Source: a virus. From it: DNA of 64,000 bases. Location of the stretch: positions 49,839-113,838 of the IMG/VR virus record IMGVR_UViG_3300036828_000667; one strand, written 5' to 3'. Below are positions 11-20,440 of this stretch, piece after piece. Positions within the stretch are counted from its first letter, which is position 1; every line of letters starts with the position of its first letter. The notes under the pieces were generated by a model. It ran no database searches and was not told the DNA's origin. It worked only from the letters and a program-made list of their open reading frames with translations. A program made the translations under genes and the position numbers.

Positions 11-36
11 GGGGCTGGTGACTTACCACCAGCCCC
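11..36. terminator. Stem-loop 3' of pentamer unit U1 (minus-strand reading)
   Basis: GGGGCTGGTG-acttac-CACCAGCCCC perfect 10-bp inverted repeat. Confidence 0.6.
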
Positions 37-70
37 TTTGGACTACGCTGTCTCTTATTCTCAGGGACTA

Positions 71-140
71 AATTGTGCGGTTTGGCCTGCAGCGGAGCGG
101 ATAGGCTAGGTTCGGATAGGCAAGGAAAGGCGTGGTATGA
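71..140 (-). ncRNA. Pentamer-coded guide-like unit U1 (NNN-CC periods)
   Basis: Plus strand reads ggttt ggcct gcagc ggagc ggata ggcta ggttc ggata ggcaa ggaaa ggcgt ggtat. The minus strand ends in the shared ACCGCACAATT handle and has its own promoter at 151-179. Confidence 0.75.
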
Positions 141-150
141 ACAATCACTC

Positions 151-179
151 CCTTAGCCTAGCTCACAAAAGCTGTCAAG
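151..179 (-). promoter_or_regulatory. Sigma70-type promoter driving U1
   Basis: CTTGAC-N17-CTAAGG on the minus strand, about 10 nt before the unit. Confidence 0.6.
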
Positions 180-189
180 GTTCTTTTCG

Positions 190-1559: not shown

Positions 1560-2033
1560 ATGACTATTTACACTATCTACCATGTTCCTAATATAAAAGT
1601 AGGAGCAACCGATAATTTAAAAACTAGAATGGCTAGATACAAGTCTAGATACAAGGAGGTTGAGATAGAAATACTCTTGAAAATGAGATTCGAACAAGTA
1701 CCAGAATATGCAAGATGGTATATAGTAGGAACTTATGAATGGATATTTGCTGATATGTATGGATACCCTAGAGGTTTTCATTACTATATCAGCAGATATA
1801 GTAATAGAGTAAAACAAAGTCCATATAGCACTTTAGAACAAATTAAGTCTAATTACGGGAAACAACATGCAAATGATTACTTTAATCAAATTACTGTAAC
1901 AAACGAAACACTATGGAAATTCCTATCGTTGCTTTTAAATCAACAAAGTTACATAGAGAGACTTGTCAAAGAGATATTCCCAAATTCTTCTCCTCAATCC
2001 TTTCCTCTGGCACTCTTTCTCTTCACCAGCTAG
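1560..2033 (+). CDS. GIY-YIG-like nuclease-related protein (paralog of 49846-50550)
   Basis: IYHVPNIKVGAT.NLK.R...Y and EW.FAD.YGY.RG.HY match IYHIPGVKVGCT.NLK.R and EW.WAD.LGY.RG.HY in 49846-50550. Confidence 0.5.
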   Translation: MTIYTIYHVPNIKVGATDNLKTRMARYKSRYKEVEIEILLKMRFEQVPEYARWYIVGTYEWIFADMYGYPRGFHYYISRYSNRVKQSPYSTLEQIKSNYGKQHANDYFNQITVTNETLWKFLSLLLNQQSYIERLVKEIFPNSSPQSFPLALFLFTS

Positions 2034-2539
2034 TTAAATCACCAGTTAGTTAAGTCAGTAAAAGACGAGGGGAGTATGAGGGGAGTTTTTCAATAGTTTG
2101 TCAATTCTACTTAGGTATAGGTTTATATCACACTATGTTACAAACTGTAAGAATGGGATATACTTTAGACACGACAAAAAGCCCCATTAGACTATGTCTA
2201 GGGGTTTATGGTCATTTGGGGGTTGTTTTTAGGATGTAAGGAGGTGCTGTTGTGGATAGCCTCTTGGTTTTATCAGGCGCCTGATAAAATTCCCTGGATT
2301 ACCTGCGGTGCACCACCGTAACCCAGTATGGTTAGGAGAATAGCTTCCCCCTGGAATACAGGGGCCTGCTCGTCTATTAAAGATCCACGGGCCAGACCGT
2401 CAGTCGCTGGATTTTTCTCACCGTGGTAGCAGCCATGGCAGTCGCCGTTAGGTCGGCCCCATGGCACCGCTGTAACTCGCGGGTAAACGCATCTTCCATA
2501 TTAGAAAACGAACTGCTAGTCAACATCACTTGGAGATAA

Positions 2540-2602
2540 AATTGTGCGGTATGGGATGCATGGGGCAGGTCCGGCAGGGTAAGCGTCGGGGTGGGGTGGA
2601 CA
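2540..2602 (-). ncRNA. Pentamer-coded guide-like unit U2
   Basis: 11 GG/GC-NNN periods on plus strand; minus strand ends ACCGCACAATT; promoter at 2609-2637. Confidence 0.7.
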
Positions 2603-2608
2603 AAGCTT

Positions 2609-2637
2609 CATTACTATCATTGCAATCCATTGTCAAG
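2609..2637 (-). promoter_or_regulatory. Sigma70-type promoter driving U2
   Basis: CTTGAC-N17-GTAATG on minus strand. Confidence 0.5.
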
Positions 2638-2682
2638 AAGTCTAAAATCAAGCCTCCCGTCCTCCCCTGGCTGGAGCATAGG

Positions 2683-5374: not shown

Positions 5375-5965
5375 ATGATGAAGCAAACCTCGTTGGCAAG
5401 GCATATAACCGTAGAGATTCCTAGTGAGAACTCAGCTGATGTTGACTTTCTTCATGAGCTAGAAGAAGCTCATGACCACGACAATTTGAAAGACGTAGGT
5501 GCTGGTGTCGAGAAAGCATTCAAGGACAGAGTTGAAAAAGAGTTCTCAGGACAAGACATTACACCAAAGACACGGGCGTCCATCACAGACTTCTGTATAT
5601 ATTTAATGTCGATTGCAAAATTTTACGGTTATGATCTTTTACTAGGTGGGTTTATTACTACTGTTCACGAAGACATGTTTTCTGTACGAACTCAACCTAC
5701 CAAAGGGATTACGGCTCTCATAGAGTCAACGTTCACGTATTTTGACGATGAGGGAAACTATAAACTCACTGCCAATGGTTTCATGAGAAGGGATTGGGCA
5801 ACTGCCCCAGACGATCCAGTCAGCCGACGTAATCAGATCCTGAGAGATAACAACGATATTTTTCCCGGATTGCAATACAGTAATGCCAACACCAATAAGC
5901 TCCATATTCATATAGAAATAACAGGACAGTTCCCGCTATTAATCCTCCCAGTTACCTACCAATAA
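5375..5965 (+). CDS. Hypothetical protein; C-terminal domain duplicated in the next gene
   Basis: AGGAG RBS; FTYF...G...L.A.G.MR.DWAT motif. Confidence 0.7.
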   Translation: MMKQTSLARHITVEIPSENSADVDFLHELEEAHDHDNLKDVGAGVEKAFKDRVEKEFSGQDITPKTRASITDFCIYLMSIAKFYGYDLLLGGFITTVHEDMFSVRTQPTKGITALIESTFTYFDDEGNYKLTANGFMRRDWATAPDDPVSRRNQILRDNNDIFPGLQYSNANTNKLHIHIEITGQFPLLILPVTYQ

Positions 5966-6607: not shown

Positions 6608-6645
6608 AAGTCATCCTCTGTTTTTGAAATGACAGAGGATGACTT
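6608..6645. terminator. Stem-loop between a convergent gene and unit U3
   Basis: AAGTCATCCTCTGT...ACAGAGGATGACTT 14-bp inverted repeat. Confidence 0.7.
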
Positions 6646-6704
6646 GTGCGGTTTGGTTAGGAATGCAGTGGCTCGGCAGGGTTCGCTTCGGTTTGGTATG
6701 GTTC
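6644..6704 (-). ncRNA. Pentamer-coded guide-like unit U3
   Basis: 11 GG/GC-NNN periods on plus strand, ACCGCACAA handle, 3' hairpin, promoter at 6716-6744. Confidence 0.75.
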
Positions 6705-6715
6705 GAACATGCGGG

Positions 6716-6744
6716 ACGTAGCAGAACTTGACCGTCTTGTCAAA
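6716..6744 (-). promoter_or_regulatory. Sigma70-type promoter driving U3
   Basis: TTTGAC-N17-CTACGT on minus strand. Confidence 0.65.
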
Positions 6745-6754
6745 TGGGTGCAAA

Positions 6755-7345
6755 ATGTCCAAGAAGTTCTCAATATCAGTGGACCATAATGCATTAAGGC
6801 AATTTCCGTTTCTGGATCGACTCCAGAAACAACAATTCCCCATTTCAACCCTCAATGAAGTTATGTACGTTCTTGAAAATAGACCTGAAGGATTCAAAAT
6901 CGAGTTGGTTTATAGTGTATTGAAAGTGTCGTTAATTAACGTCAATAGAGACACCAATGACGACTACTTGGGATTGCCGAAGATTGAAGGTCAGTTGAAA
7001 GACCTGTGTGATGTGATCAGAGAGACCACGTCATATGGAACACGTGGGGGAGTCGACCCAAGGACACAAATATATTATAGTAGGAAGTCGTCTATTCTAC
7101 AGGGTAGTAACCTTAGTGATGATGCTCTGATAGCTCCTAATTATGTTTCTAATAGAGGTTTGAGAAAACGCCATCCTCTTGATCTTGTGTCCACAGAAGA
7201 GGTCGTTAAAAGAAGGGAACTTGCTAACCGACACTGGCAAGAACAGAAAAAAGAGCAACGAAGAAAACAACAGTCCAGTATCAACTCAAAAATCCGGAAT
7301 GCTCAGGACTTTTTGACAAGAAGCAATTTTGACAAGAAGCAATAA
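6755..7345 (+). CDS. Hypothetical protein; matched by unit U4
   Basis: Track ORF 6728-7345 with in-frame ATG at 6755. Confidence 0.7.
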   Translation: MSKKFSISVDHNALRQFPFLDRLQKQQFPISTLNEVMYVLENRPEGFKIELVYSVLKVSLINVNRDTNDDYLGLPKIEGQLKDLCDVIRETTSYGTRGGVDPRTQIYYSRKSSILQGSNLSDDALIAPNYVSNRGLRKRHPLDLVSTEEVVKRRELANRHWQEQKKEQRRKQQSSINSKIRNAQDFLTRSNFDKKQ

Positions 7346-7356
7346 TAATGTTAACC
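7328..7356 (+). promoter_or_regulatory. Sigma70-type promoter driving U4
   Basis: TTTGAC-N17-TTAACC(T). Confidence 0.55.
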
Positions 7357-7362
7357 TTCTTC

Positions 7363-7426
7363 GGCGAACCGGTCCAATCCGAACCGACCCTATCCCTACC
7401 GGACCCTTGCACAGCATACCGCACAT
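7363..7426 (+). ncRNA. Pentamer-coded guide-like unit U4
   Basis: 12 periods; decodes to EGNEDYLGL vs DTNDDYLGL in the upstream gene. Confidence 0.8.
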
Positions 7427-7429
7427 CTA

Positions 7430-7460
7430 CCCCTCAGGCTGTATTACACAGCCTGAGGGG
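7430..7460 (+). terminator. Intrinsic terminator after U4
   Basis: CCCCTCAGGCTGT...ACAGCCTGAGGGG followed by TTATTATT. Confidence 0.7.
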
Positions 7461-7483
7461 TTATTATTATTAGGAGGTTAGAG

Positions 7484-11491: not shown

Positions 11492-11773
11492 TTGGCAAAA
11501 GCAACAACGCGAGAACGTCAACCATTGACTAAGCGTGCGTTGCGTATTTATATAATAGTCAAACAGTACGGTCCCCCAGTAGGACTTCCTATGTCCGTAG
11601 TGGACATACAGAAATATATTCCAGAAATAACCGTTGATTGTATCAGTCCACGTATGCCAGAGCTTCGTGAAAAAAGATGGCTTCTGCGTATTGGAAAAGC
11701 ACCGCGTCCAAATCGAACTGGACGTTCGCAAAGCCAGTGGGTTTATAGAGTAATTAACGAGGATGAACTTTGA
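11492..11773 (+). CDS. Winged-helix-like DNA-binding protein
   Basis: ISPRMPELREK...R..RTGR....Y pattern. Confidence 0.6.
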   Translation: MAKATTRERQPLTKRALRIYIIVKQYGPPVGLPMSVVDIQKYIPEITVDCISPRMPELREKRWLLRIGKAPRPNRTGRSQSQWVYRVINEDEL

Positions 11774-11810
11774 GTGGCAACAGATGGACGTGTAGCTCAG
11801 CGGTAGCATC

Positions 11811-12338
11811 ATGGCAAAACACAATGAAGAAAATGATCTATGGTTCCTTAGCAAAATCGCAGATGGAACCATTTCTGTATCCGAAGACGGAGAGGTCTTC
11901 AACAACAAGACAGGTAGATATATAGGCGCTCAACAAGGAGCAGGTTACCTTAAGATTTCTATGGCAAAGAGAGTTGATGGAAAACTTGTTATTGTCCATA
12001 TGCAAATCCATAGGTTAGTATGGCTACATTTCAAAGGACCTATTCCTCAGGGACTAGAAGTCAATCACAAAGATTTAAACAAATCGAACCCACGATTGTC
12101 AAATCTAGATTTACAAACACCCAAAGGGAATGCTGAACATGCCACCTTAAATGGTGTTGACCGACGCTCAAAAACAGGAGGCCATAAAAACGCTAATGCC
12201 AAATTTACACGTGAACAAGTCGAGATGCTACGGAGACAATTCAAATCGAAAGAAACCACAGTTAAAGAAATAATGATAAACTATAGTGTTTCTAAGCCAG
12301 TTGTGTATTGGATGCTGGAAGGAAGGACCTATAAATAG
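11811..12338 (+). CDS. HNH homing endonuclease
   Basis: HRLVW..F.G.IP.GLEVNHKD.NK.N....NL. Confidence 0.9.
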   Translation: MAKHNEENDLWFLSKIADGTISVSEDGEVFNNKTGRYIGAQQGAGYLKISMAKRVDGKLVIVHMQIHRLVWLHFKGPIPQGLEVNHKDLNKSNPRLSNLDLQTPKGNAEHATLNGVDRRSKTGGHKNANAKFTREQVEMLRRQFKSKETTVKEIMINYSVSKPVVYWMLEGRTYK

Positions 12339-12363
12339 CTACTAACCTGTAGGATTTATAACA

Positions 12364-12693
12364 ATGGTAGAATTTGGAGCGTTCATTCGCAAAGAACGAG
12401 AGGCCAGAGATATTAGCTTACGAAAGATGGCCAAGAAGATTGGTGTAAGTGCAACCTATCTATCACAAGTGGAACTTGATAGGTTCCCACCACCAACTGA
12501 GGATAGGGTAAAGGCTATTGCCAAGATCATTGACTGTAATCCTGACTACCTACTGGCCAAAGCTGGACGGATCTCGACCGACATTTCCGACATCATTAAA
12601 CGTCGTCCGATCGAGCTTTCGATGCTTATTCGAGCCGCCAAGTACTTGAGTAACGATGACATTGCCCAATTGATTAATGCGGCGTCAGCGTAG
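12364..12693 (+). CDS. XRE-family HTH transcriptional regulator
   Basis: FGAFIRKERE...SLRKMA..IGVSATYLSQVE. Confidence 0.9.
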   Translation: MVEFGAFIRKEREARDISLRKMAKKIGVSATYLSQVELDRFPPPTEDRVKAIAKIIDCNPDYLLAKAGRISTDISDIIKRRPIELSMLIRAAKYLSNDDIAQLINAASA

Positions 12694-12787
12694 GAGCCTC
12701 ACTGGTAAGTCTTTTAGGCCTGGAGGCCCTACCACCTGGCCTGTCCATAATTCGCGTCAGTGGGCTTCCAACAAAGAGGAGAGGGTA

Positions 12788-12973
12788 ATGCGTTGCGATC
12801 GGTGTCAGGGAACAGGCTGGGATCGGGCAGGAGTACACCCTGTACTTGGGCCGCTCTTCGATTGCAACCATCCGTGTACTGAATGCGGCGGGTCAGGCAT
12901 CGCCCACTGTTGCGACGGCATCTGCGAACAGCCTTCAATTGACAAGTCTATAGATGACAAGCTAACATCTTGA
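12788..12973 (+). CDS. Small DnaJ-type zinc-finger protein
   Basis: CDRCQGTG...CTECGGSG; GGAGAGG RBS. Confidence 0.65.
   Translation: MRCDRCQGTGWDRAGVHPVLGPLFDCNHPCTECGGSGIAHCCDGICEQPSIDKSIDDKLTS
12938..12968 (+). promoter_or_regulatory. Sigma70-type promoter driving U5
   Basis: TTGACA-N18-TAACAT. Confidence 0.55.
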
Positions 12974-13046
12974 CGCCTACCGTACCACTCCGACGCCAAC
13001 CACACCGAGCCGGTCCATACCTTTCCAAACCAAACCACACTTTTTT
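12974..13046 (+). ncRNA. Pentamer-coded guide-like unit U5
   Basis: 13 periods ending ACCAAACCACAC-TTTTTT. Confidence 0.75.
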
Positions 13047-13224
13047 ATTACTACTAGATATTCAGGAAAGGCGAACATGAGAGGTTAGGTTAAACTAACT
13101 TCGTTCTTCCTTTAGCTCAGCTACAAACTTCTTAATCAGAGTTGTTAAGGTTGGAGTGTGCTTAGCTGGAAAGTTACCAGCAAGTACCTTGGCAATAGCA
13201 TACCGAATTACCTTAAACTCTTCC

Positions 13225-13476
13225 TCAGTTAGCTCCAACGTTATCACTAGGCACCTCGCCTTTCTTTATCACGCTAACCTTACTATCATCGATCTTCAGA
13301 GTAAACCTCTTATTATCCACAACTTCTCGCCATCTATTTTCCTCAATATAAGCACAGGCTTTAAGGTAGTCCGTCAAACAAAAAACATGAGTATGTATCT
13401 GTGACCAACACGGATGCTCACGGCATAAGTGTTCAATCTTGGCGGCTAACTCCCTGAGTGGTGATTGCATACCCAA
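13225..13476 (-). CDS. Hypothetical protein
   Basis: GGAGG near start, plausible composition. Confidence 0.5.
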   Translation of the reverse strand: MGMQSPLRELAAKIEHLCREHPCWSQIHTHVFCLTDYLKACAYIEENRWREVVDNKRFTLKIDDSKVSVIKKGEVPSDNVGAN

Positions 13477-13571
13477 CCTCCCTTTTGTGTGACCATAAAG
13501 TTACACTTAAATTGAATCTGATTCTGGGAATTGACCTGCCAAGGCTGATAGGCGAAAACTCATATTGCAAG

Positions 13572-13641
13572 GTCGAACCGCTGCCTTGCTTGCCAAACCG
13601 GGCCAAGCCGGCGCGGACCAAACCTCCGCACACCGCACAAT
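13572..13641 (+). ncRNA. Pentamer-coded guide-like unit U6
   Basis: 13 periods decoding to EALLKGKGGKSTA, the peptide encoded at 13756-13794. Confidence 0.9.
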
Positions 13642-13676
13642 GGGAGTAGTCAAATGGCTTGCAGACTACTCCCATT
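13639..13676 (+). terminator. Stem-loop 3' of U6
   Basis: AATGGGAGTAGTC...GACTACTCCCATT 13-bp stem. Confidence 0.65.
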
Positions 13677-13695
13677 AACACAGGAGTAAAACAAC

Positions 13696-14337
13696 ATGCT
13701 AATTTCAGTCACGATCTCCGGAATCCGACCTTTAATCCTCGACGCGTTTTCCGAGGAAGCGTTGCTTAAGGGGAAGGGAGGAAAGAGTACAGCCCAGCCC
13801 AAGGAACTGAGTCCCTTGGATCAAGCCAAGCGTAGGTTATACTATAATGGAGATGGTACCGACGTTCCTATATTCCCAGCAGACAACCTACTCAGCTGTA
13901 TCATCGCTGCCGGGCGGTTTATCAAGGTCGGGAAAAGGCAACTAACTACTCGCGACAGTACGACAGTAACTTCATTCCTACAGATATCAGAACTATATCT
14001 TCCCATTAGGTCGATAGATGGATGGCGAGTCGACTCCAGGAGCATCGTCAACCCGTCTACAAAAGGTCGTCACATATGCTACCGTCCCATCTTTGACGAC
14101 TGGGAGTTAGATTTCACGCTCGACATCGATACGAATGAAGCGAGCGACAGCTTGGTTAGACAGTTGATTGATAGAGCAGGTAGGTTTATCGGGATCGGGG
14201 TCATGCGGCCCGAAAGGAAGCGGCAGTATGGGCAATACGTGGTGCGCTGCTGGGATTGCCGTTCAGAACATGAAGAGCTTGACAACATACCAAAACTTGC
14301 TAAGAAAACTAAGACTAGATCGAAAGAACTAGTCTAA
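13696..14337 (+). CDS. Stand-alone RAMP / Cas7-like RNA-binding protein, candidate effector of the pentamer guides
   Basis: N-terminal strand ISGIRPLIL, PIFPADNLLSCI (cf. RAMP P.IPGSSLKG), C-terminal Gly-rich loop GIGVMRPERKRQYGQYVV; AGGAG RBS. Confidence 0.75.
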   Translation: MLISVTISGIRPLILDAFSEEALLKGKGGKSTAQPKELSPLDQAKRRLYYNGDGTDVPIFPADNLLSCIIAAGRFIKVGKRQLTTRDSTTVTSFLQISELYLPIRSIDGWRVDSRSIVNPSTKGRHICYRPIFDDWELDFTLDIDTNEASDSLVRQLIDRAGRFIGIGVMRPERKRQYGQYVVRCWDCRSEHEELDNIPKLAKKTKTRSKELV

Positions 14338-14467
14338 CACTGGTTCATCGCGGACCGTACCGGAGCGTGCCATGCCCGTCCCCGCCGAGCCCGACCAAAC
14401 CAGACCCAACCTACGCGGACCCAGCCTATCCTTAGCGTAGCACACCGCACAGTTAAGGCCAAAACCA

Positions 14468-14511
14468 GAAGGAAGGAGATACGGAAATGAAACCACGCAT
14501 CTCCTTCCTTC
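14468..14511 (+). terminator. Stem-loop 3' of unit A
   Basis: GAAGGAAGGAGAT...ATCTCCTTCCTTC. Confidence 0.6.
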
Positions 14512-15110
14512 AAACCCAAGTTTCGAACAATCCATGCCACTGCAAACCGCGCCAGCCCTATGCCTACCACTGTGAACCGCTCCACACCATTCTTTTATCA
14601 ATTATCAAGTCAACACTCCGAACCAGACCCCGCCTTACCCAACAGCACCCCACCAAACCGGACCGACCCACTCCAATGTGCACCTCAGCAGACCGAAGCA
14701 CACCATACTTTATCAATTGCCTTCCCGACCCGAGCTATGCCCAACCGACCCGACCCACTCCGGGCCGCACCCCTCCCTCCCATCCCGCAGCACACCATAC
14801 TTTATTTCATTACGACTCTCCGGCCCTACGCCAACCACACCAGCCCGGAGCGTGCCATACCGCACCATACTTTTATCATTTCAATGCGCACCGTCCCTCA
14901 CCGTGCCATCTCTCACCCGACCATACCATCCCTCCCCACCTCGGCCCGGACCCCGCCGATGCAAACCACACCATACTTTATCAATTTTCAGAACCATCCC
15001 GACCGTACCAGTGCGCGCCATTCCAATGCAGCCCTCGCCTCCGCATGTCAGGCCGCCCCGACCCATGCCGCACCAAACCACACTTTCTTTATCAACTAAG
15101 GAGAACCAGC

Positions 15111-15311
15111 ATGACCACACATCGTCCCACATTCGAAGACTGGCAGCTAGACTTCACTTTGGATTATAATGAAACTGAAATAGATGAAGGTACTATACGT
15201 AAGCTAATCGAAGTAGTAGCTGGAACGCACATAGGACTTGGCTCTATGCGCCCAGAACGACATGGACCCTATGGACAGTTTAAGATCAAGGAATGGACTC
15301 CACATTCTTAG
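15111..15311 (+). CDS. 66-aa truncated paralog of the RAMP protein C-terminus
   Basis: AAGGAG RBS; RPTFEDWQLDFTLD...IGLGSMRPERHGPYGQF aligns with RPIFDDWELDFTLD...IGIGVMRPERKRQYGQY. Confidence 0.8.
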   Translation: MTTHRPTFEDWQLDFTLDYNETEIDEGTIRKLIEVVAGTHIGLGSMRPERHGPYGQFKIKEWTPHS

Positions 15312-15598
15312 TCTTATCCATCTCTGCTTACCGTAGCCCTCATCACCGCACCCGTGAGCACCGACCCATGCCTGAGCCTACCTCAGCATACCCAACCGCA
15401 GCAACCCGGTGCGAACCAAACCACACTATTTTTTATACAATTTCAACTTACCGTCCCGGCCCGAGCCAGTCCATCGTGCGCCGACCCGTCGCTCCCCATA
15501 CCGCACTATACTTTATTCATTACCAACCATGCCATACCATGCCATTCCGGAACGCTGCCCTCCGGTCCACACCACACTTTCTTTAGGAGTTTAACCAG

Positions 15599-15844
15599 AT
15601 GGCAAAGGTAACTGGTATTGACGGTAAAAGCTTTATCAAAGGTCAACGTTTTGGTAAGCTAGTTGCGGTACGTCCACTAGGCTGGAGTAGTGACCGCAGC
15701 TGGTGTTGGCTATGTAAGTGTGATTGCGGCAATGAGACTATCTTAAGTGCTAACAGACTTCGAAGTGGTGAAGTTCAAGCTTGTGGATACGCTGTAACTA
15801 TAAAATCAGACACAAATGAGGAACACTGTAACGGACAGATATAA
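15599..15844 (+). CDS. N-terminal fragment of an HNH/AP2-type endonuclease family protein
   Basis: GQRFGKLV...W.CKCDCG......LRSG...CG; no nuclease domain. Confidence 0.65.
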   Translation: MAKVTGIDGKSFIKGQRFGKLVAVRPLGWSSDRSWCWLCKCDCGNETILSANRLRSGEVQACGYAVTIKSDTNEEHCNGQI

Positions 15845-16158
15845 TGACAAAGCCTACCATTACTGTCAAACAGAATCCCAATGAAGGTGACGTAGCTGAC
15901 TTCGTAGTTTGTCACCGTGTTTCTGTGCTACCTATCCCGTACGTGTCAGCTGAGATCCAACATTGCTCCAGATGTAACGAAAGGATATGGGTTGCAAACA
16001 CCTCTCCATCTAAGCCTCCTAAACTATGCTGGGAATGTTCAATTCCTCTAATTGCCAAAGACGACGATACAAGAATAATGATTACCGAACGGCAACGGGC
16101 AGAGGTTCAGAAGTATATGCAACTAGTCCAGAAACTCCAGGAGAAAAATGAAAAGTGA
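15844..16158 (+). CDS. Zinc-binding hypothetical protein
   Basis: CSRC...CWEC. Confidence 0.65.
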   Translation: MTKPTITVKQNPNEGDVADFVVCHRVSVLPIPYVSAEIQHCSRCNERIWVANTSPSKPPKLCWECSIPLIAKDDDTRIMITERQRAEVQKYMQLVQKLQEKNEK

Positions 16159-16408
16159 ACGTCATAAGATGCTCGAAATAGCCATGAGGTATCTCGACAG
16201 ACTATTCAACGGTAATGATAAAACAATAGAAAAAAGCACTGGAATTGTATTACTTACGTTCTCCTTTACTGACGAAGATGGTAATCATTGCGGTGATGAC
16301 AATGGGACTATCATCACCAATGGCATAGAAAGGGAACACATTGTAGGCATTATGGAAGCAATGCTAGAAAGACTGAAGGCAGACGATATACTTTTCAGAC
16401 GACATTAA
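16148..16408 (+). CDS. Hypothetical protein, paralog of the 7484-8080 C-terminal half
   Basis: LDRLFNG...TGIVLLTF.F...ITNG. Confidence 0.7.
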   Translation: MKSERHKMLEIAMRYLDRLFNGNDKTIEKSTGIVLLTFSFTDEDGNHCGDDNGTIITNGIEREHIVGIMEAMLERLKADDILFRRH

Positions 16409-16414
16409 AGACCT

Positions 16415-16969
16415 TTAAGTAGCATCATAGGCAAACTCACCAGCCAAACGTTTGGAAGCTTCCTCATACGCCTGAACCGCCTCTTCTACTGTGTTAAAGG
16501 TACCGATCTGAACGTCTTTATACATATGTTTTATTCTAGCCTCCCATTTTCCTGTGCTTTTCTTGTACCTTACTCCCTTAAAACCACTTGTATTATTTTT
16601 GAACATAGGACGATTGTAGCAATTCTGCTGTGTCGTCGCTGGACGAAGATTAGTCCATATATTGTTACCTGGATTTAGATCCTTATGATCTATCTCATAA
16701 TTAGGCCATTCTCCTGTCACATATAACCATATAATACGATGTACTTGATACATTCTGCCATTAACTTTTACCTGTATACGTCCTCCTTTCTTAATAGAAC
16801 CCGCCGTACTTCCAATAACAATCCTCCAGTTTAACGCCTCCTTCCATGTAAGTATACCAGTTTCAGGATCATAGTTAAAAATCTGCCTAACAAACTCAGC
16901 TGTTAGACTATTGTTATAGATACGAGTCCCCATTTTTACGCTCCTGTAGTGGCAGCCTTTACTGCCCAA
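16415..16969 (-). CDS. HNH endonuclease with C-terminal AP2 domain (likely start 16933)
   Basis: YDPETG, HRIIW, IDHKD....NN...NLR, NNTSGFKGV..W.A.I. Confidence 0.9.
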   Translation of the reverse strand: MGSKGCHYRSVKMGTRIYNNSLTAEFVRQIFNYDPETGILTWKEALNWRIVIGSTAGSIKKGGRIQVKVNGRMYQVHRIIWLYVTGEWPNYEIDHKDLNPGNNIWTNLRPATTQQNCYNRPMFKNNTSGFKGVRYKKSTGKWEARIKHMYKDVQIGTFNTVEEAVQAYEEASKRLAGEFAYDAT

Positions 16970-17139
16970 TGAACAGCCTCTTCATAAGCGGTTTGTGCTA
17001 AGGACGCTAACCTAGCATCTTTCGATTTCAGAGTTTCACATAGGTCGATCAACTCAGCAGACTTTTGCTTGATCTCATCAACTATAGTATCTGCACTTGG
17101 ATTAAATGCAGTCCGAACTCGTTGTTCACCGATTGTCAT
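16936..17139 (-). CDS. Acb2/Tad1-like helical-hairpin protein (possible nucleotide-signal sponge)
   Basis: R.ASLAQT.YEEA..WAVKA motif; AGGAG RBS. Confidence 0.55.
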   Translation of the reverse strand: MTIGEQRVRTAFNPSADTIVDEIKQKSAELIDLCETLKSKDARLASLAQTAYEEAVHWAVKAATTGA

Positions 17140-17150
17140 AGTACTCTCCT

Positions 17151-17181
17151 CTTGACAAGTTCACCTTGTTACACCTACGAT
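17151..17181 (+). promoter_or_regulatory. Sigma70-type promoter driving unit K
   Basis: CTTGACA-N18-TACGAT. Confidence 0.65.
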
Positions 17182-17186
17182 GATTA

Positions 17187-17246
17187 CTCGAACCGACCCC
17201 GTCCAGGCCACTCCTCCGCCCACCGACGCAAACCGCACAATTTTAT
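17187..17246 (+). ncRNA. Pentamer-coded guide-like unit K
   Basis: 10 periods ending ACCGCACAATTTT. Confidence 0.75.
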
Positions 17247-17361
17247 ATCCTACCATTTTCCACTACTTAGTTGGCTAGCAATAAGTCAAGCGTATAATTC
17301 TAAGACCCTACAAGACATACAAATGGGAACGTCCTAAAACCCGCAACAGAAAGTCCCGATC

Positions 17362-17529
17362 ATGCTAAGCATGGGCGACAAGGTAATAAAGGACACTGGC
17401 GACTATACTTTTTCGGGTGTCGTCATCGCAGTATTCCTAAAACGCAATGGTACTGCTGTAAGGTATGTAGTAGAGAACGAAGAAGGTATCTGCCACATAT
17501 TCAACGACCGCCAAATTAGAAAGGTTTAA
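17362..17529 (+). CDS. 55-aa SH3-like phage protein, not in the ORF track
   Basis: MLSMGDKVIKDTGDYTFSGVVIAVFLKRNGTAVRYVVENEEGICHIFNDRQIRKV, translated by hand. Confidence 0.65.
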   Translation: MLSMGDKVIKDTGDYTFSGVVIAVFLKRNGTAVRYVVENEEGICHIFNDRQIRKV

Positions 17530-17534
17530 TTTAT

Positions 17535-17777
17535 GTGAAGAAGTGTGACTATGCACATCAAGAAAGGTACAGAAGAGTGACAAAGGCAGAACTGACTTGT
17601 AGCGTATGCGGCAAACGTTATGAAACTCTAGGAGACTATGGGGACGACGTTGACTGCCAAATGATCTGTTTTCGCTGCTTCGAACAAGCTGATGCCATCT
17701 CTGCTCAGCAGAATCGCTGGCCTGATGGTCGAGACTTTCGTTACTTACGAGATATGAAAAAGCATCATCAAAAGTAG
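17535..17777 (+). CDS. Zinc-binding hypothetical protein
   Basis: CSVC...CFRC. Confidence 0.55.
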   Translation: MKKCDYAHQERYRRVTKAELTCSVCGKRYETLGDYGDDVDCQMICFRCFEQADAISAQQNRWPDGRDFRYLRDMKKHHQK

Positions 17778-17812
17778 ACCACACAATTACCATAATCAGA
17801 TTATACAAACTA

Positions 17813-17915
17813 ACCATACCGAGCCGAGCCGTTGCCGCACCATACTTTATCAATTTGATTCCCACCACACCTCCCCGGACCTATCCAGCCCCCTGCAAAC
17901 CGCACCATACTTACT
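17813..17915 (+). ncRNA. Two short pentamer units: L (17813-17855, with a 1-nt phase slip) and M (17859-17915)
   Basis: Same period and ACCATACTT tail as the main array. Confidence 0.7.
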
Positions 17916-17928
17916 TGTAATATAAATA

Positions 17929-18237
17929 TCAGTGAGTGTAGCTAGACTGACCATGCCCATCAGCATCCAATTCTTCACTAATTTCGTTGATCTCAATAGA
18001 CAGCATTTTACCAAACTCACTAAAAGCTTCCGGCCTATCCTCAGTCGAGGTAGCTCCAACAATTGCTCTAGCAACTACTTCACAAAGCACAGAACTAAGT
18101 TCCTCATAGTCAATTTGATCTCCTGGACTACCGTCCGGGTTTCCATTACGGCGATAAAAATCCGTAATGACTTCATTGAAAAAACAGCTAAGACATTCGC
18201 GTTCCCTACCGTCATCCGCTTTGATCTTATGTGCCAT
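17929..18237 (-). CDS. Acidic hypothetical protein
   Basis: AGGAGG RBS. Confidence 0.7.
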   Translation of the reverse strand: MAHKIKADDGRERECLSCFFNEVITDFYRRNGNPDGSPGDQIDYEELSSVLCEVVARAIVGATSTEDRPEAFSEFGKMLSIEINEISEELDADGHGQSSYTH

Positions 18238-18321
18238 ATTTAAACCTCCTACCTTTCACAGAACCGCTATACTTTATCCATAATCCACACTTAGTGATTT
18301 AGAAGTCAGCCAAGAGTTCTC

Positions 18322-18457
18322 TGCGTACCGACTCTTTCCGGACCGGACTGTACCACACTATACCATACCTCACCTACCCATACCTCGCCTAACCACGCCT
18401 TTGCGACCCGGAGCGTGCCTCGCCTACCCAATGCGACCCTGACCACAGCACACAATT
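18322..18457 (+). ncRNA. Pentamer-coded guide-like unit N (26 periods)
   Basis: Decoded reverse complement reads VVQSLYDTPSNVYDMYDIIVTPPKST, matching the terminase C-terminus. Confidence 0.9.
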
Positions 18458-18477
18458 ATAGGACTAAAAGACATGAG

Positions 18478-18510
18478 GTGGTGACTTGTATGGTTTGGGC
18501 AAGTCACCAC
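18478..18510. terminator. Stem-loop between unit N and the terminase stop
   Basis: GTGGTGACTTG...CAAGTCACCAC. Confidence 0.65.
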
Positions 18511-18514
18511 TTCC

Positions 18515-20440
18515 CTACGCAATTCTTTGAAACCTATCACCAAGAGACTGCAACGTATCCCTTATAGAGCCGTAAGCTTCATATACGTTGCTGGGCGTGT
18601 CGTAAAGCGACTGTACCGCATTATAAGTCGCAGCGCATAGGCTGTCCGCCATGTCGCAATGACTACCTTCTAATTGCGCCTTCACGACCTTATTATTTTC
18701 GAACCAGATGGATTCCAGTTCCTTCTTCAAGTCACGCATCATTCCAGTTTTGAGGCAATCAGTCGCGACAATGTTACTAAGAACATCATATGGTGTACGT
18801 GTCTTTTCCACGCTCAACACCTCCACAGTCTCAGCATACCCTATCGATGTAAGCTTCTGTATCAATTGTTCACTCTGATATTGGTCAGCTGTGAAAGTCT
18901 TGAACCCTAGACCATAGTAATCTCTCAAGTCTATAATGAACTCCTTGACTGCTTCCAAATTGATACGGTTTGGACTTGTGATCCTTAGAACCAAATCAGC
19001 GACGTATATCACCTTGCCTGTCCGGCTAAGCTCCTTGTGGACTACGGATAGCCCAGCTGAACTCACAGCAGCACCGTCCCAAGCTCCGTATCTAGTAGCC
19101 GCTGGATATCTTTTCCATCTGTATCCTTCAGGCGTAGCTATAAACAAGTCTCTCGGTAGCTGCTCTCGTAGCGGGGCTGGGATAGGCTGATTGGCATTAC
19201 CAAGAGGTGCCGAAACATAAAGAATCGGGCAGAGGTTTGGATCTTCGACTTTGCTGAGGTCATCGAAAGGCACCTCCTGACCCATGCTCGCTTGACCAGC
19301 TAGATTCATCAGGGATTGCTCTGTCCTTCTTTCAAAGTCACGTTGATATCGCTTAGGGACTTTCACTAGTGTACAAGACGGTGGAAGATCAAACTTGTCA
19401 TTCTCAGCTAGTACACTTTCTCTAGGTTCAAGTACCCTTGATGGGTGTCTTTGAGTACCACGCATACACCAGAAGTGACCATCATGTTTAAGCGCATCAG
19501 GATACTTGGTATCCCATATGGAGTACTGACTGACTTTACCAGCTGGATCATTTCGAAGCTGGGCGATGTGAGTAGCCATAACCCCCTTCTCATGAGCAAT
19601 AGAAGACAATAGAGTCATTAGCGTATAGCGGACTCCCAAGAACCTGGACCTTATGCGTTCAAAGATGTTGTCATATAGTGTAAATGCCTTGTCTACGAGA
19701 CCCTTGCTACCAATTCGAAATTCTGCCTCGTCGAGCATACCTCCAAACACATCTTCACCCAGAACATGTCGATCCTGTGATCCAGCGTAAATCTTTACGT
19801 TATTAGGAAACTCAAATCCTTCTCCATTGAATACCCATGGTGTAAGTTTCTCTAATTCAGGATCGTTCTCAAATTCAAGGAAGTCCCTTAAATGATTCAC
19901 CTTCCTGTAGTCCTTACAGGCTGAGAGCAATATCCCAACACGTTCAATCAGAGTGCTCTGGGCCTTCTCCTTAGTAACAGTAAACAGCTGTAGGATCATC
20001 GGCTTTGATGGGCCGGTACCCATACTCAGCTGAGGATTCCTGAAAGAGTTTATCCTGTAAACATTATACAATTGTGCTATTAAACCAGCAGTGCTCTTAC
20101 CAGTGCCAATAGCACCAGTTACTCCCCATCTACAGATAATAGATTTAGGAGCAAATATCTCAATCAAATCCTTCTTCCAGTTAGGAAACAAGATTAGTGC
20201 ATCATCCCCTATATAATCAGGAGTTAGAAACTCTTCTATAGTAGGTATTGGTCTCTTGAAACACATAGTAGTCAAGTCAGGGACTTCTTTAAAATGACCT
20301 AGCATTGTCAACGCTAGGCCAAGACGTTTCTTCTCAGGTGGAATCTCCCTAAGTCGAGGGTTTCTGGCGTCCATATCCAACATAAACTGAGCAAACTCGC
20401 TAGACTCAGCAATTCTGTCAAGCTCCACAGGATCTATCAT
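18515..20440 (-). CDS. terL: Terminase large subunit
   Basis: Walker A GAIGTGKS, Walker B GMLDEAE, C-terminal RNase H-like acidic residues (WD, ADQYQS, D.AD). Confidence 0.85.
   Translation of the reverse strand: MIDPVELDRIAESSEFAQFMLDMDARNPRLREIPPEKKRLGLALTMLGHFKEVPDLTTMCFKRPIPTIEEFLTPDYIGDDALILFPNWKKDLIEIFAPKSIICRWGVTGAIGTGKSTAGLIAQLYNVYRINSFRNPQLSMGTGPSKPMILQLFTVTKEKAQSTLIERVGILLSACKDYRKVNHLRDFLEFENDPELEKLTPWVFNGEGFEFPNNVKIYAGSQDRHVLGEDVFGGMLDEAEFRIGSKGLVDKAFTLYDNIFERIRSRFLGVRYTLMTLLSSIAHEKGVMATHIAQLRNDPAGKVSQYSIWDTKYPDALKHDGHFWCMRGTQRHPSRVLEPRESVLAENDKFDLPPSCTLVKVPKRYQRDFERRTEQSLMNLAGQASMGQEVPFDDLSKVEDPNLCPILYVSAPLGNANQPIPAPLREQLPRDLFIATPEGYRWKRYPAATRYGAWDGAAVSSAGLSVVHKELSRTGKVIYVADLVLRITSPNRINLEAVKEFIIDLRDYYGLGFKTFTADQYQSEQLIQKLTSIGYAETVEVLSVEKTRTPYDVLSNIVATDCLKTGMMRDLKKELESIWFENNKVVKAQLEGSHCDMADSLCAATYNAVQSLYDTPSNVYEAYGSIRDTLQSLGDRFQRIA

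What the first reader, a model, noticed from the sequence alone, without database searches (positions are those of the whole stretch)
14526..15585. Array units B-J decode to gene-like foreign sequences, some covering translation starts
B aat ATG act aaa gcg agc tat cta act gaa gct (MTKASYLTEA). C actgaaagaccgttacaagcaccaaAAGGAGAcactaATGcatcaagagaa (Shine-Dalgarno plus ATG). D ttc gac gag atg caa gac gac act ggg gca cct ctc atc gca (FDEMQDDTGAPLIA). E tct ggc tac caa aca agc gga gtg ata. F gcagtctcagtgatctcacgaataatctccaccggcggaccggataaa. G catcgagtaagtgcgattaatagctcgtccatGAGGgccgacATGgca. H ttagtaccttcagcacgtgcagacatgtgactatcaatacaagcaaacggtgaa. I tta gtc ggc gag agt atc gcg gac gtc tcc ata. 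J atg ata atg att gga gct cct ggt (MIMIGAPG, like the lead-in to a Walker A loop). The array resembles a library of acquired targets, which implies an unknown mechanism that interleaves CC every three bases.
Basis: partly seen in the sequence, partly recalled or inferred. Interest (0 to 1): 0.8.

Follow-up and report, generated by a model that had tools for sequence, protein, structure and literature searches.

The report
Phage VIPR guide-RNA array, CC-type
The five-base repeats are guide-RNA genes of a phage VIPR system, a CRISPR-like RNA-guided DNA silencer first published in 2026, here in a lineage built on a C-C scaffold with three variable bases per repeat instead of the published G-G-Y; the targets of guides B-J remain unknown.

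Summary
Window 14529-15585 holds nine units (B-J) of (NNN+CC)n pentamers, and every decoded string was reproduced. The kind is already published. Gene 13696-14337 is a Vipr RAMP protein (profile hit to PDB 36pp 'SUSP1 Vipr protein', E=1.6e-14). The units are vrRNA guide genes of a VIPR system (bioRxiv 10.64898/2026.04.26.720920). CC is protein-bound scaffold, so no CC-interleaving mechanism is needed, and neither an RT nor Cas1 is present. This scan has found VIPR before on other DNA.

No target was found for B-J. Taken alone, they are only weakly distinguishable from composition-matched random triplets (p about 0.04-0.08). The Shine-Dalgarno/ATG readings are unsupported.

Three things differ from the published GGY/NN systems:
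- Promoters, terminators, tails and gene orientation put CC on the transcribed strand.
- This co-varies perfectly with a G-loop change, D-[FYW] to V-M, at the residues that contact the two guanines in SUSP1.
- The third base is fully variable and respects codons.

Unit A and seven dispersed units spell peptides of the adjacent gene of the phage itself, but in other synonymous codons. This suggests guides aimed at relatives' alleles, with the phage's own allele recoded.

The parts
13535..13680 (+). Solo vrRNA gene upstream of vipr: TTGACC promoter box, tract 13575-13634, then GCACA plus tail hairpin. Decodes to EALLKGKGGKST, identical to Vipr residues 21-32 (window 13756-13791).
   Evidence: Hairpin z=-5.25.
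13696..14337 (+). vipr gene: 213-aa RAMP protein with G-loop G-I-G-V-M-R-P.
   Evidence: Profile against PDB 36pp_D 'SUSP1 Vipr protein' E=1.6e-14. AF2 model pLDDT 83 matches Csm3/Cas7 chains at E about 1e-6. phrog_4652. 95 homologues.
14352..14511 (+). Unit A: tract 14352-14446 plus tail hairpin 14468-14511. Decodes to GVGVMRPERKRQYGQY, the G-loop of the phage's own Vipr (14191-14238): 29/32 first and second bases match, 1/16 third bases.
   Evidence: Hairpin z=-5.4.
14529..14603 (+). Unit B (tract 14529-14588, handle ACACC-ATTCTTTTATCAATT). In-register decoding NMTKASYLTEAT.
14615..14716 (+). Unit C (18 pentamers plus handle ATACTTTATCAA).
14717..14816 (+). Unit D (16 pentamers plus handle). 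In-register decoding LFDEMQDDTGAPLIAT.
14817..14887 (+). Unit E (10 pentamers plus handle).
14888..14994 (+). Unit F (17 pentamers plus handle). Best coding score in the antisense wobble-aligned frame. Absent, together with G, in a strain variant.
   Evidence: Joint 14873>15144.
14995..15098 (+). Unit G (17 pentamers plus handle running into the RBS of the next ORF).
15111..15311 (+). 66-aa ORF, a C-terminal fragment of a second Vipr (profile positions 118-186, G-loop G-L-G-S-M-R-P).
   Evidence: phrog_4652 E=1.9e-9.. E=1.2e-23.
15328..15447 (+). Unit H (19 pentamers plus handle). It has an in-register stop and is stop-free as antisense. Absent in a strain variant.
   Evidence: Joint 15316>15442.
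15448..15523 (+). Unit I (12 pentamers plus handle).
15524..15585 (+). Unit J (10 pentamers plus handle running into the RBS of ORF 15599-15844). In-register decoding QMIMIGAPGT.
7328..7461 (+). Solo vrRNA gene: TTGACA promoter, tract 7366-7405, intrinsic terminator 7429-7461. Weakest of the near-matches, to adjacent gene 6728-7345.
12939..13102 (+). Solo vrRNA gene: promoter 12939-12968, tract 12977-13036, terminator-like hairpin 13081-13102.
17152..17234 (+). Solo vrRNA gene: promoter 17152-17181, tract 17190-17234.
17862..17915 (+). Unit with an array-type handle. Recombination partner of the main array in a strain variant (joint 14987>17922).
18325..18444 (+). Longest unit (24 pentamers).
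6608..6744 (-). Solo vrRNA gene on the minus strand: TTGACA box, tract 6650-6704, tail hairpin.
   Evidence: Hairpin z=-6.6.
2548..2640 (-). Solo vrRNA gene on the minus strand (tract 2548-2602, TTGACA box upstream).
11..180 (-). Solo vrRNA gene on the minus strand (tract 79-138, TTGACA box upstream, hairpin downstream).

Best explanation
Window 13535-15585 is a VIPR locus (Viral Interference Programmable Repeat) of an uncultivated soil phage of about 114 kb. It holds a Vipr RAMP gene, one vrRNA gene upstream, unit A downstream, and then an array of nine further vrRNA units, B-J. At least 17 more solo vrRNA genes are dispersed over about 52 kb of the genome.

By analogy with the published SUSP1 system (inferred here, not shown), one Vipr protomer binds each pentamer. 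It holds the constant bases and presents the variable bases, and the filament binds matching double-stranded DNA and silences transcription of competing mobile elements. B-J are therefore guides. Their targets are not yet identified.

This lineage differs from the published GGY/NN design. The transcribed strand carries (N1 N2 N3 C/G C)n. N1N2 correspond to codon positions 1-2 of targets, and N3 sits where the published system skips the wobble base.

My reading of the register is inference. The published G1-G2-Y3 pockets here hold N3-C4-C5. The G1 pocket has lost its specificity (D to V), the G2 pocket is altered (W/F/Y to M, and G is still seen in 14-17% of units), and the pyrimidine pocket keeps C.
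For: Protein:
- The Vipr profile hits PDB 36pp 'SUSP1 Vipr protein' at E=1.6e-14.
- The AF2 model matches Csm3/Cas7 chains.
- The family lies next to period-5 tracts in dozens of divergent phage contigs.

RNA genes:
- 13 of 18 solo units have TTGAC within 70 nt upstream in the CC sense, 11 of them at -34 to -44 from the first pentamer, against 9% expected (p=1e-10).
- The GG sense shows no such clustering.
- Hairpins with T-runs follow on the CC strand.
- A conserved ACACC-GCACA or ACACC-ATACTTT end lies 3' of every tract.
- In relatives the tract runs straight into the vipr RBS in the CC sense.

Control: phage Alf5 has a Vipr stretch identical to the SUSP1 (PDB 36pp) sequence over the 56 residues used as query. 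With the same reading it shows GG-sense units co-directional with vipr and a 3' tail.

Co-variation: G-loop V-M or S-M goes with CC-sense tracts in 21 loci and GG-sense in none. D-[FYW] goes with GG-sense tracts in 34 loci and CC-sense in none. These two residues align to SUSP1 D177 and W178, which contact G1 and G2 (10.64898/2026.04.26.720927).

Guide behaviour:
- Unit A and seven solo units match genes 65-393 bp away, with BLOSUM scores 31-86 (seven at 38-86, the weakest 31) against a shuffle maximum of 30-38.
- In amino-acid-identical codons, first bases match in 73/80 and second bases in 79/80.
- Strain variants gain and lose whole units at the handles.
Against: - No RNA data exist for this phage, so the strand, the ends and Vipr binding are inferred.
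- No target was found for any of B-J, and B-J alone are barely distinguishable from composition-matched random triplets.
- The unit pattern NN-N-CC is exactly the reverse complement of the published GG-Y-NN, so an antisense GG-strand RNA is not excluded.
- No conserved vap accessory gene was recognised.
- The published surveys report no self-matches at 80% or more NN. Four units here reach 83-91% against the phage's own genes.
Confidence: 0.85

Rival explanations
1. Same VIPR system, but the working RNA is the GG strand, (GGNNN)n, transcribed antisense to vipr. This would be the 'NNNGG' repeat type that the discovery paper lists, with only the pyrimidine pocket relaxed.
For: The DNA pattern NN-N-CC is the exact reverse complement of GG-Y-NN. 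The paper names NNNGG repeats and no CC type.
Against: Promoter boxes cluster at -34 to -44 only in the CC sense (p=1e-10). Terminator T-runs and the conserved end motif lie 3' in the CC sense. CC is co-directional with vipr in 21 of 21 loci and abuts its RBS. The two residues that contact the guanines are replaced exactly in this clade.
Confidence: 0.13
2. One reading: units are made by copying foreign DNA while inserting CC after every third base. The third base would then be a memory of the source and would not be read.
For: The third base respects codon meaning: 41 of 45 split-box codons keep the purine/pyrimidine class. Stops are depleted against third-base shuffles. The origin of new vrRNAs is not addressed in the parts of the three preprints I read.
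Against: Neither an RT nor Cas1 is in the record, though the record is only 77% complete. No enzyme known to me inserts two bases per triplet. A passive memory would not explain why the third base differs from the phage's own gene more often than saturation allows (11 of 39 identical against 50%, p=0.005).
Confidence: 0.15
3. The dispersed units and unit A regulate the phage's own adjacent genes (timed self-silencing) rather than competitors.
For: Eight units lie 65-393 bp from their best match, and NN identity is 79-91% for five of them.
Against: Leu, Ser and Arg codons are switched between codon families in 7 of 10 cases. Third bases avoid identity. Both lower the match to the phage's own genes. 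This does not bear on B-J, which have no match in the phage's own genome.
Confidence: 0.1
4. The array is coding or junk: the 274-aa open frame 14487-15311, or a degenerate simple repeat.
For: The frame is open.
Against: C-rich DNA lacks stops by composition. The period is 5, not 3. The same tracts occur on both strands in intergenic DNA with their own promoters, and next to vipr in many phages.
Confidence: 0.01

Closest known systems
Type II VIPR of Escherichia phage SUSP1 (Vipr + vap1 + four vrRNAs; bioRxiv 10.64898/2026.04.26.720920 and .720927; PDB 36pp)
   Same: Homologous Vipr protein (E=1.6e-14). Units of about 10-24 pentamers, followed by a constant 3' end and, for unit A and the solo units, a hairpin. 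One unit lies upstream and an array downstream of vipr. The variable dinucleotide aligns to codon positions 1-2 of protein-coding DNA. Some guides are aimed at vipr itself.
   Different: The scaffold on the sense strand is (C/G)C rather than GG. The position equivalent to the conserved pyrimidine or skipped base is fully variable (entropy 1.98 bits). G-loop D-W is replaced by V-M. There is no pseudoknot tail in array units, only a 12-20 nt unstructured AU-rich handle. No vap was recognised. Many units nearly match the phage's own genome.
Alternative vrRNA repeat types NNNGG, YNNNG and NNNNG, named in the methods of 10.64898/2026.04.26.720920
   Same: Only two constant bases and three variable bases per pentamer.
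   Different: The paper's text names no CC form and, in what I could read (figures are not held), gives no targeting rule or strand evidence for these types. Here the evidence favours CC on the RNA.
Solo vrRNAs and vipr-targeting vrRNAs of SUSP1-family phages and satellites (bioRxiv 10.64898/2026.10.15.759431)
   Same: Stand-alone vrRNA genes outside the vipr locus. Guides against vipr coding sequence in wobble register. Self-match is lower than the match to rivals.
   Different: Here the solo units sit in a VIPR-positive phage, each with its own sigma-70-type promoter, each beside the gene it nearly matches, and the phage's own copy is synonymously recoded.
Class 1 CRISPR Cas7-crRNA backbone (Csm3/Cmr4)
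   Same: RAMP fold with G-loop and thumb (Foldseek E about 1e-6). Periodic kinking of a guide RNA.
   Different: No repeat-spacer array, no Cas1. The period is 5 rather than 6. The constant bases are interleaved inside the guide.

Membership tests
VIPR (Vipr protein + vrRNA) | Vipr RAMP homologue with G-loop and thumb | tested here: met
   hmmsearch of profile A1 against PDB: 36pp_D SUSP1 Vipr, E=1.6e-14, with alignment through YRP (thumb R138) and G-x-G-x-x-R-P. AF2 model against Csm3/Cas7.
VIPR (Vipr protein + vrRNA) | Tandem pentanucleotide repeats, about 9-16 per unit, flanking vipr | tested here: met
   Units of 8-24 pentamers upstream and downstream of vipr. The same holds in 20 related loci.
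VIPR (Vipr protein + vrRNA) | Conserved GGY motif on the RNA strand alternating with NN | tested here: not met
   The sense strand has (C/G)C, and the third variable position is not restricted. Strand call from promoters, terminators, tails and gene orientation. This is a scaffold variant. The paper allows 'a related consensus'.
VIPR (Vipr protein + vrRNA) | Constant 3' tail after the repeat tract | tested here: met
   ACACC-GCACA plus hairpin (z -5 to -6.6) in unit A and the solo units. ACACC-ATACTTTATCAATT handle in B-J.
VIPR (Vipr protein + vrRNA) | Variable dinucleotides match protein-coding DNA with the unread base at the wobble position | tested here: met
   Met for unit A and seven solo units: first bases 73/80, second bases 79/80, third bases 20/80. 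For B-J it is inconclusive: no match in the phage's own genome, 140 related loci, IMG/VR or GTDB genomes.
VIPR (Vipr protein + vrRNA) | vrRNAs expressed and co-purifying with Vipr; DNA binding and silencing | not testable with these tools
   No RNA run is listed for this DNA.
VIPR (Vipr protein + vrRNA) | Linked vap accessory gene | tested here: inconclusive
   None of the neighbouring ORFs is conserved beside vipr in related loci. An HTH protein (12364-12693) and Zn-ribbon ORFs are nearby.
CRISPR-Cas | Identical direct repeats separating unique spacers, plus cas1/cas2 adaptation genes | tested here: not met
   TRF finds no array. There is no Cas1 in the record. The only RAMP is Vipr plus a fragment of it.
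RT-based diversity or retroelement systems (DGR, retron) | Reverse transcriptase gene | tested here: not met
   PF00078 is absent from the 113.8-kb record. The record is 77% complete.

The most novel reading that the evidence does not exclude
This Vipr clade (G-loop V-M) uses a '3+2' code. All three variable bases of each N-N-N-C-C repeat are read against three contiguous target bases, so there is no skipped wobble base. The phage pairs many guides with a synonymously recoded copy of the targeted gene next door. Each guide-plus-immune-allele pair would silence the unrecoded allele of close relatives during co-infection while sparing the phage's own copy. This would be an RNA-guided allele-exclusion module.
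Probability: 0.3. Interest if true: 0.8.

Novelty: new variant of a known kind. Interest (0 to 1): 0.55.

Why it matters
The VIPR preprints explain the one-base skip as a way to stay blind to synonymous escape. A natural clade that instead carries three informative bases per repeat on a C-C scaffold, with the two guanine-contacting residues swapped, would show that the scaffold and perhaps the reading rule of this minimal RNA-guided DNA binder can be re-specified by a few residues. That bears on both its evolution and its engineering.

The guide-beside-recoded-gene pattern gives a concrete, testable picture of how closely related phages might exclude each other. It may also hint at where new guides come from, a question the parts of the papers I read do not address.

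Tried and rejected
Searches for targets that found nothing:
- Exact codon-register pattern scans (first and second bases fixed, third free, 10-13 codons) found nothing. Units A, B, C, D, F, G and H were scanned in IMG/VR. D and F were scanned in GTDB genomes. Only exact matches are possible there, so near-matches of 80-90% would be missed.
- A mismatch-tolerant scan of all units against the phage's own genome and 140 fetched loci gave only control-level hits for B-J. An all-against-all scan for cross-targeting inside the CC clade found none.

Tools that could not be used:
- The search for homologous proteins refuses peptides under 40 aa.

Other blanks:
- No RNA holder is listed for this DNA.
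- Rfam has no family in 12800-18600.
- TRF finds nothing.
- A first literature search on '5-nt periodicity' found nothing relevant. The PDB hit led to the papers.

Rejected readings:
- Quintuplet decoding or translation of the units: they have no starts, some have stops, and they carry their own promoters and terminators.
- The 274-aa open frame.
- rut-site or G-quadruplex readings, which became unnecessary once Vipr was identified.
- The SD+ATG readings of C and G, which are out of pentamer register.

A test that does not stand: the '8 of 9 best frames are wobble-aligned' result for B-J gives p about 0.001 under a naive null. It does not survive composition-preserving shuffles (p=0.17), so it should not be cited as support.

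Full report
**What is there**

Window 14529-15585 holds nine units (B-J). Each is a run of 10-19 pentamers of the form three variable bases plus CC (sometimes GC), closed by a related handle of the type ACACC-ATACTTTATCAATT.

The same kind of unit occurs 28 times in the 113.8-kb virus record, on both strands and always in intergenic DNA. Over all units, pentamer position 5 is C in 97%, position 4 is C in 84% and G in 14%, and the three other positions are variable. The tracts are unstructured as RNA (z +1.6 and -0.1).

**What it is**

The gene directly upstream (13696-14337, 213 aa) has no Pfam family. It belongs to phrog_4652 and has 95 relatives in metagenomes.
- A profile of these relatives hits one solved structure, PDB 36pp 'SUSP1 Vipr protein', at E=1.6e-14.
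- The AF2 model (pLDDT 83) matches Csm3/Cas7 backbone subunits.

That led to three 2026 preprints on VIPR systems. In these, a small phage-encoded RAMP protein polymerises on vrRNAs made of 9-16 YNNGG repeats plus a 3' tail. It hides each GGY and presents each NN. It then binds double-stranded DNA in which every third base, usually the codon wobble base, is skipped, and this silences rival phages and satellites.

The finding is therefore a vrRNA guide array. CC is scaffold, and no interleaving mechanism is needed. The record has neither a reverse transcriptase nor Cas1. This scan has already met VIPR loci on several other genomes.

**Which strand is the RNA**

All lines of evidence favour the CC strand.
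- Thirteen of 18 solo units have TTGAC within 70 nt upstream in the CC sense, 11 of them at -34 to -44 from the first pentamer. The expectation is 9% (p=1e-10). The GG sense shows nothing comparable (examples).
- Stable hairpins (z -5 to -6.6), several with T-runs, follow on the CC strand.
- The conserved end motif lies 3' of the tract in the CC sense.
- In all relatives of 51% identity or more, CC is co-directional with vipr, and the upstream tract runs into the vipr ribosome-binding site.
- As a control, phage Alf5, whose Vipr matches the solved SUSP1 protein exactly over the 56 residues queried, shows GG-sense units co-directional with vipr and a 3' tail under the same reading.

**Protein-RNA co-variation**

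Across about 120 loci the G-loop dipeptide predicts the scaffold without exception.
- V-M or S-M goes with CC-sense tracts in 21 loci and GG-sense in none.
- D-[FYW] goes with GG-sense tracts in 34 loci and CC-sense in none (further clade-specific columns).
- These two residues align with SUSP1 D177 and W178. The structure paper says these residues hydrogen-bond G1 and stack on G2.

In GG-type relatives the base next to the scaffold is a purine on the complementary strand in 93% of repeats. In the CC clade it is fully variable (entropy 1.98 bits).

My register proposal is inference. The G1-G2-Y3 pockets here hold N3-C4-C5, so only the first two pockets changed. The 14-17% G at position 4 fits this.

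**Do the units carry gene information?**

For unit A and seven dispersed units, yes. Their triplets spell peptides of a gene 65-393 bp away, with BLOSUM scores 31-86 (seven at 38-86, the weakest 31) against a shuffle maximum of 30-38. A ninth candidate, the minus-strand unit at window 79-138, was dropped because its match lies in no open frame.
- Unit A gives GVGVMRPERKRQYGQY against the phage's own Vipr GIGVMRPERKRQYGQY.
- The unit at 13575 gives EALLKGKGGKST, 12/12 with Vipr residues 21-32.
- Among 95 homologues only this phage's own protein has these motifs.
- In amino-acid-identical codons the first two bases agree in 73/80 and 79/80, and the third in 20/80.

The third base is not noise.
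- In split codon boxes it keeps the purine/pyrimidine class of the gene in 41 of 45 cases (p=6e-6 and 4e-5).
- In four-fold boxes it is random (15 of 31).
- Within split boxes it is the same base in only 11 of 39 cases (p=0.005 against 50%).
- Leu, Ser and Arg codons switch family in 7 of 10 cases.
- Stops are depleted against third-base shuffles in this genome (9 against 16.4, p=0.004).
- In the relatives only one of four stop measures is low: the sum of the lower stop count of the two wobble-aligned frames per unit (7 against 13.0, p=0.015). The others give p about 0.16.
- By contrast, a canonical GG-type guide (L124) aimed at the N-terminus of other phages' vipr does not keep amino-acid meaning at that position.
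- A second CC-clade phage (L081) has a unit just after vipr that spells the last nine codons of vipr, with a Ser family switch.

So the units are synonymous recodings of lineage-specific peptides of the phage itself. The simplest reading is that the guides match the unrecoded allele of close relatives and the phage's own allele has been selected to differ. Because wobble changes would be pointless under the published skip rule, this hints that the third base is read in this clade. That remains inference.

**B-J specifically**

No match was found in the phage's own genome or in 140 related loci. Exact-register scans also found nothing: B, C, D, F, G and H in IMG/VR, and D and F in GTDB genomes.

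All nine units are stop-free in one of the two wobble-aligned frames. F, G and H score better as antisense of coding DNA. Against composition-preserving shuffles, however, the signals are weak (p=0.04-0.44).

The Shine-Dalgarno/ATG readings of C and G are out of pentamer register and unsupported. The ATG in B is in register but cannot be tested.

**Population data**

Two soil metagenomes from different studies hold this DNA; one of them may be the sample the window was assembled from. Their contigs show strain variants:
- F plus G missing, with 35 other bases in their place (14873>15144, seen in both runs);
- H missing (15316>15442);
- G through H missing (14982>15411);
- the array joined to the distant unit at 17862 (14987>17922).

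All these joints lie at or near the handles. There are also six third-position transitions in vipr. Units are thus gained and lost as cassettes.

**Verdict**

This is a real, functional-looking VIPR guide array. The kind is already published. This clade's C-C scaffold, its informative third base, its V-M G-loop and its guide-beside-recoded-gene layout are not in the parts of the preprints I read (their figures are not held) and are worth testing.

Noticed in passing
window 15111-15311: A 66-aa ORF inside the array is a C-terminal Vipr fragment (profile positions 118-186, G-loop G-L-G-S-M-R-P) with its own RBS. A strain variant replaces its 5' end and units F-G with 35 other bases. It may be a remnant of a second VIPR locus fused into the array, since units H-J have slightly different handles.
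   Followed up: partly
genome G000:C1 16678-68282 (window -33160 to 18444): At least 18 solo vrRNA genes, most with their own TTGACA promoter, are spread over about 52 kb. Seven lie 65-393 bp from the gene they nearly spell (small hypothetical proteins of 70-266 aa). Four of these genes are on the opposite strand to the unit.
   Followed up: partly
window 11811-12338 (+) and 16415-16969 (-): Two HNH-type homing-endonuclease-like ORFs flank the VIPR region. A strain variant lacks 11771-12787 (joint), as expected for a mobile endonuclease gene.
   Followed up: no
L124:3368-3462 (-): A canonical GG-type vrRNA in another phage matches the first codons (VTIEGTTPLLMNRF) of the vipr genes of at least six other contigs (13 of 19 codons). 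This is an independent example of vipr-against-vipr targeting.
   Followed up: partly
L081:609-713 (+): In a second CC-clade contig the unit directly after vipr spells the last nine codons of that vipr (8 of 9 aa) with a TCC/AGT serine switch. This is the same recoding pattern as in the window.
   Followed up: partly
window 18515-20440 (-): The large terminase is closest to Pseudomonas phage QdP_Psa3 (37.5% identity, 114.8 kb) and Xanthomonas phage phiXF1 (34%). The host is unknown. Both runs holding the DNA are soil metagenomes.
   Followed up: no
window 2030-2060 and 5388-5506: There are clustered small deletions and SNP runs in strain contigs outside the VIPR region. I did not examine them.
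   Followed up: no
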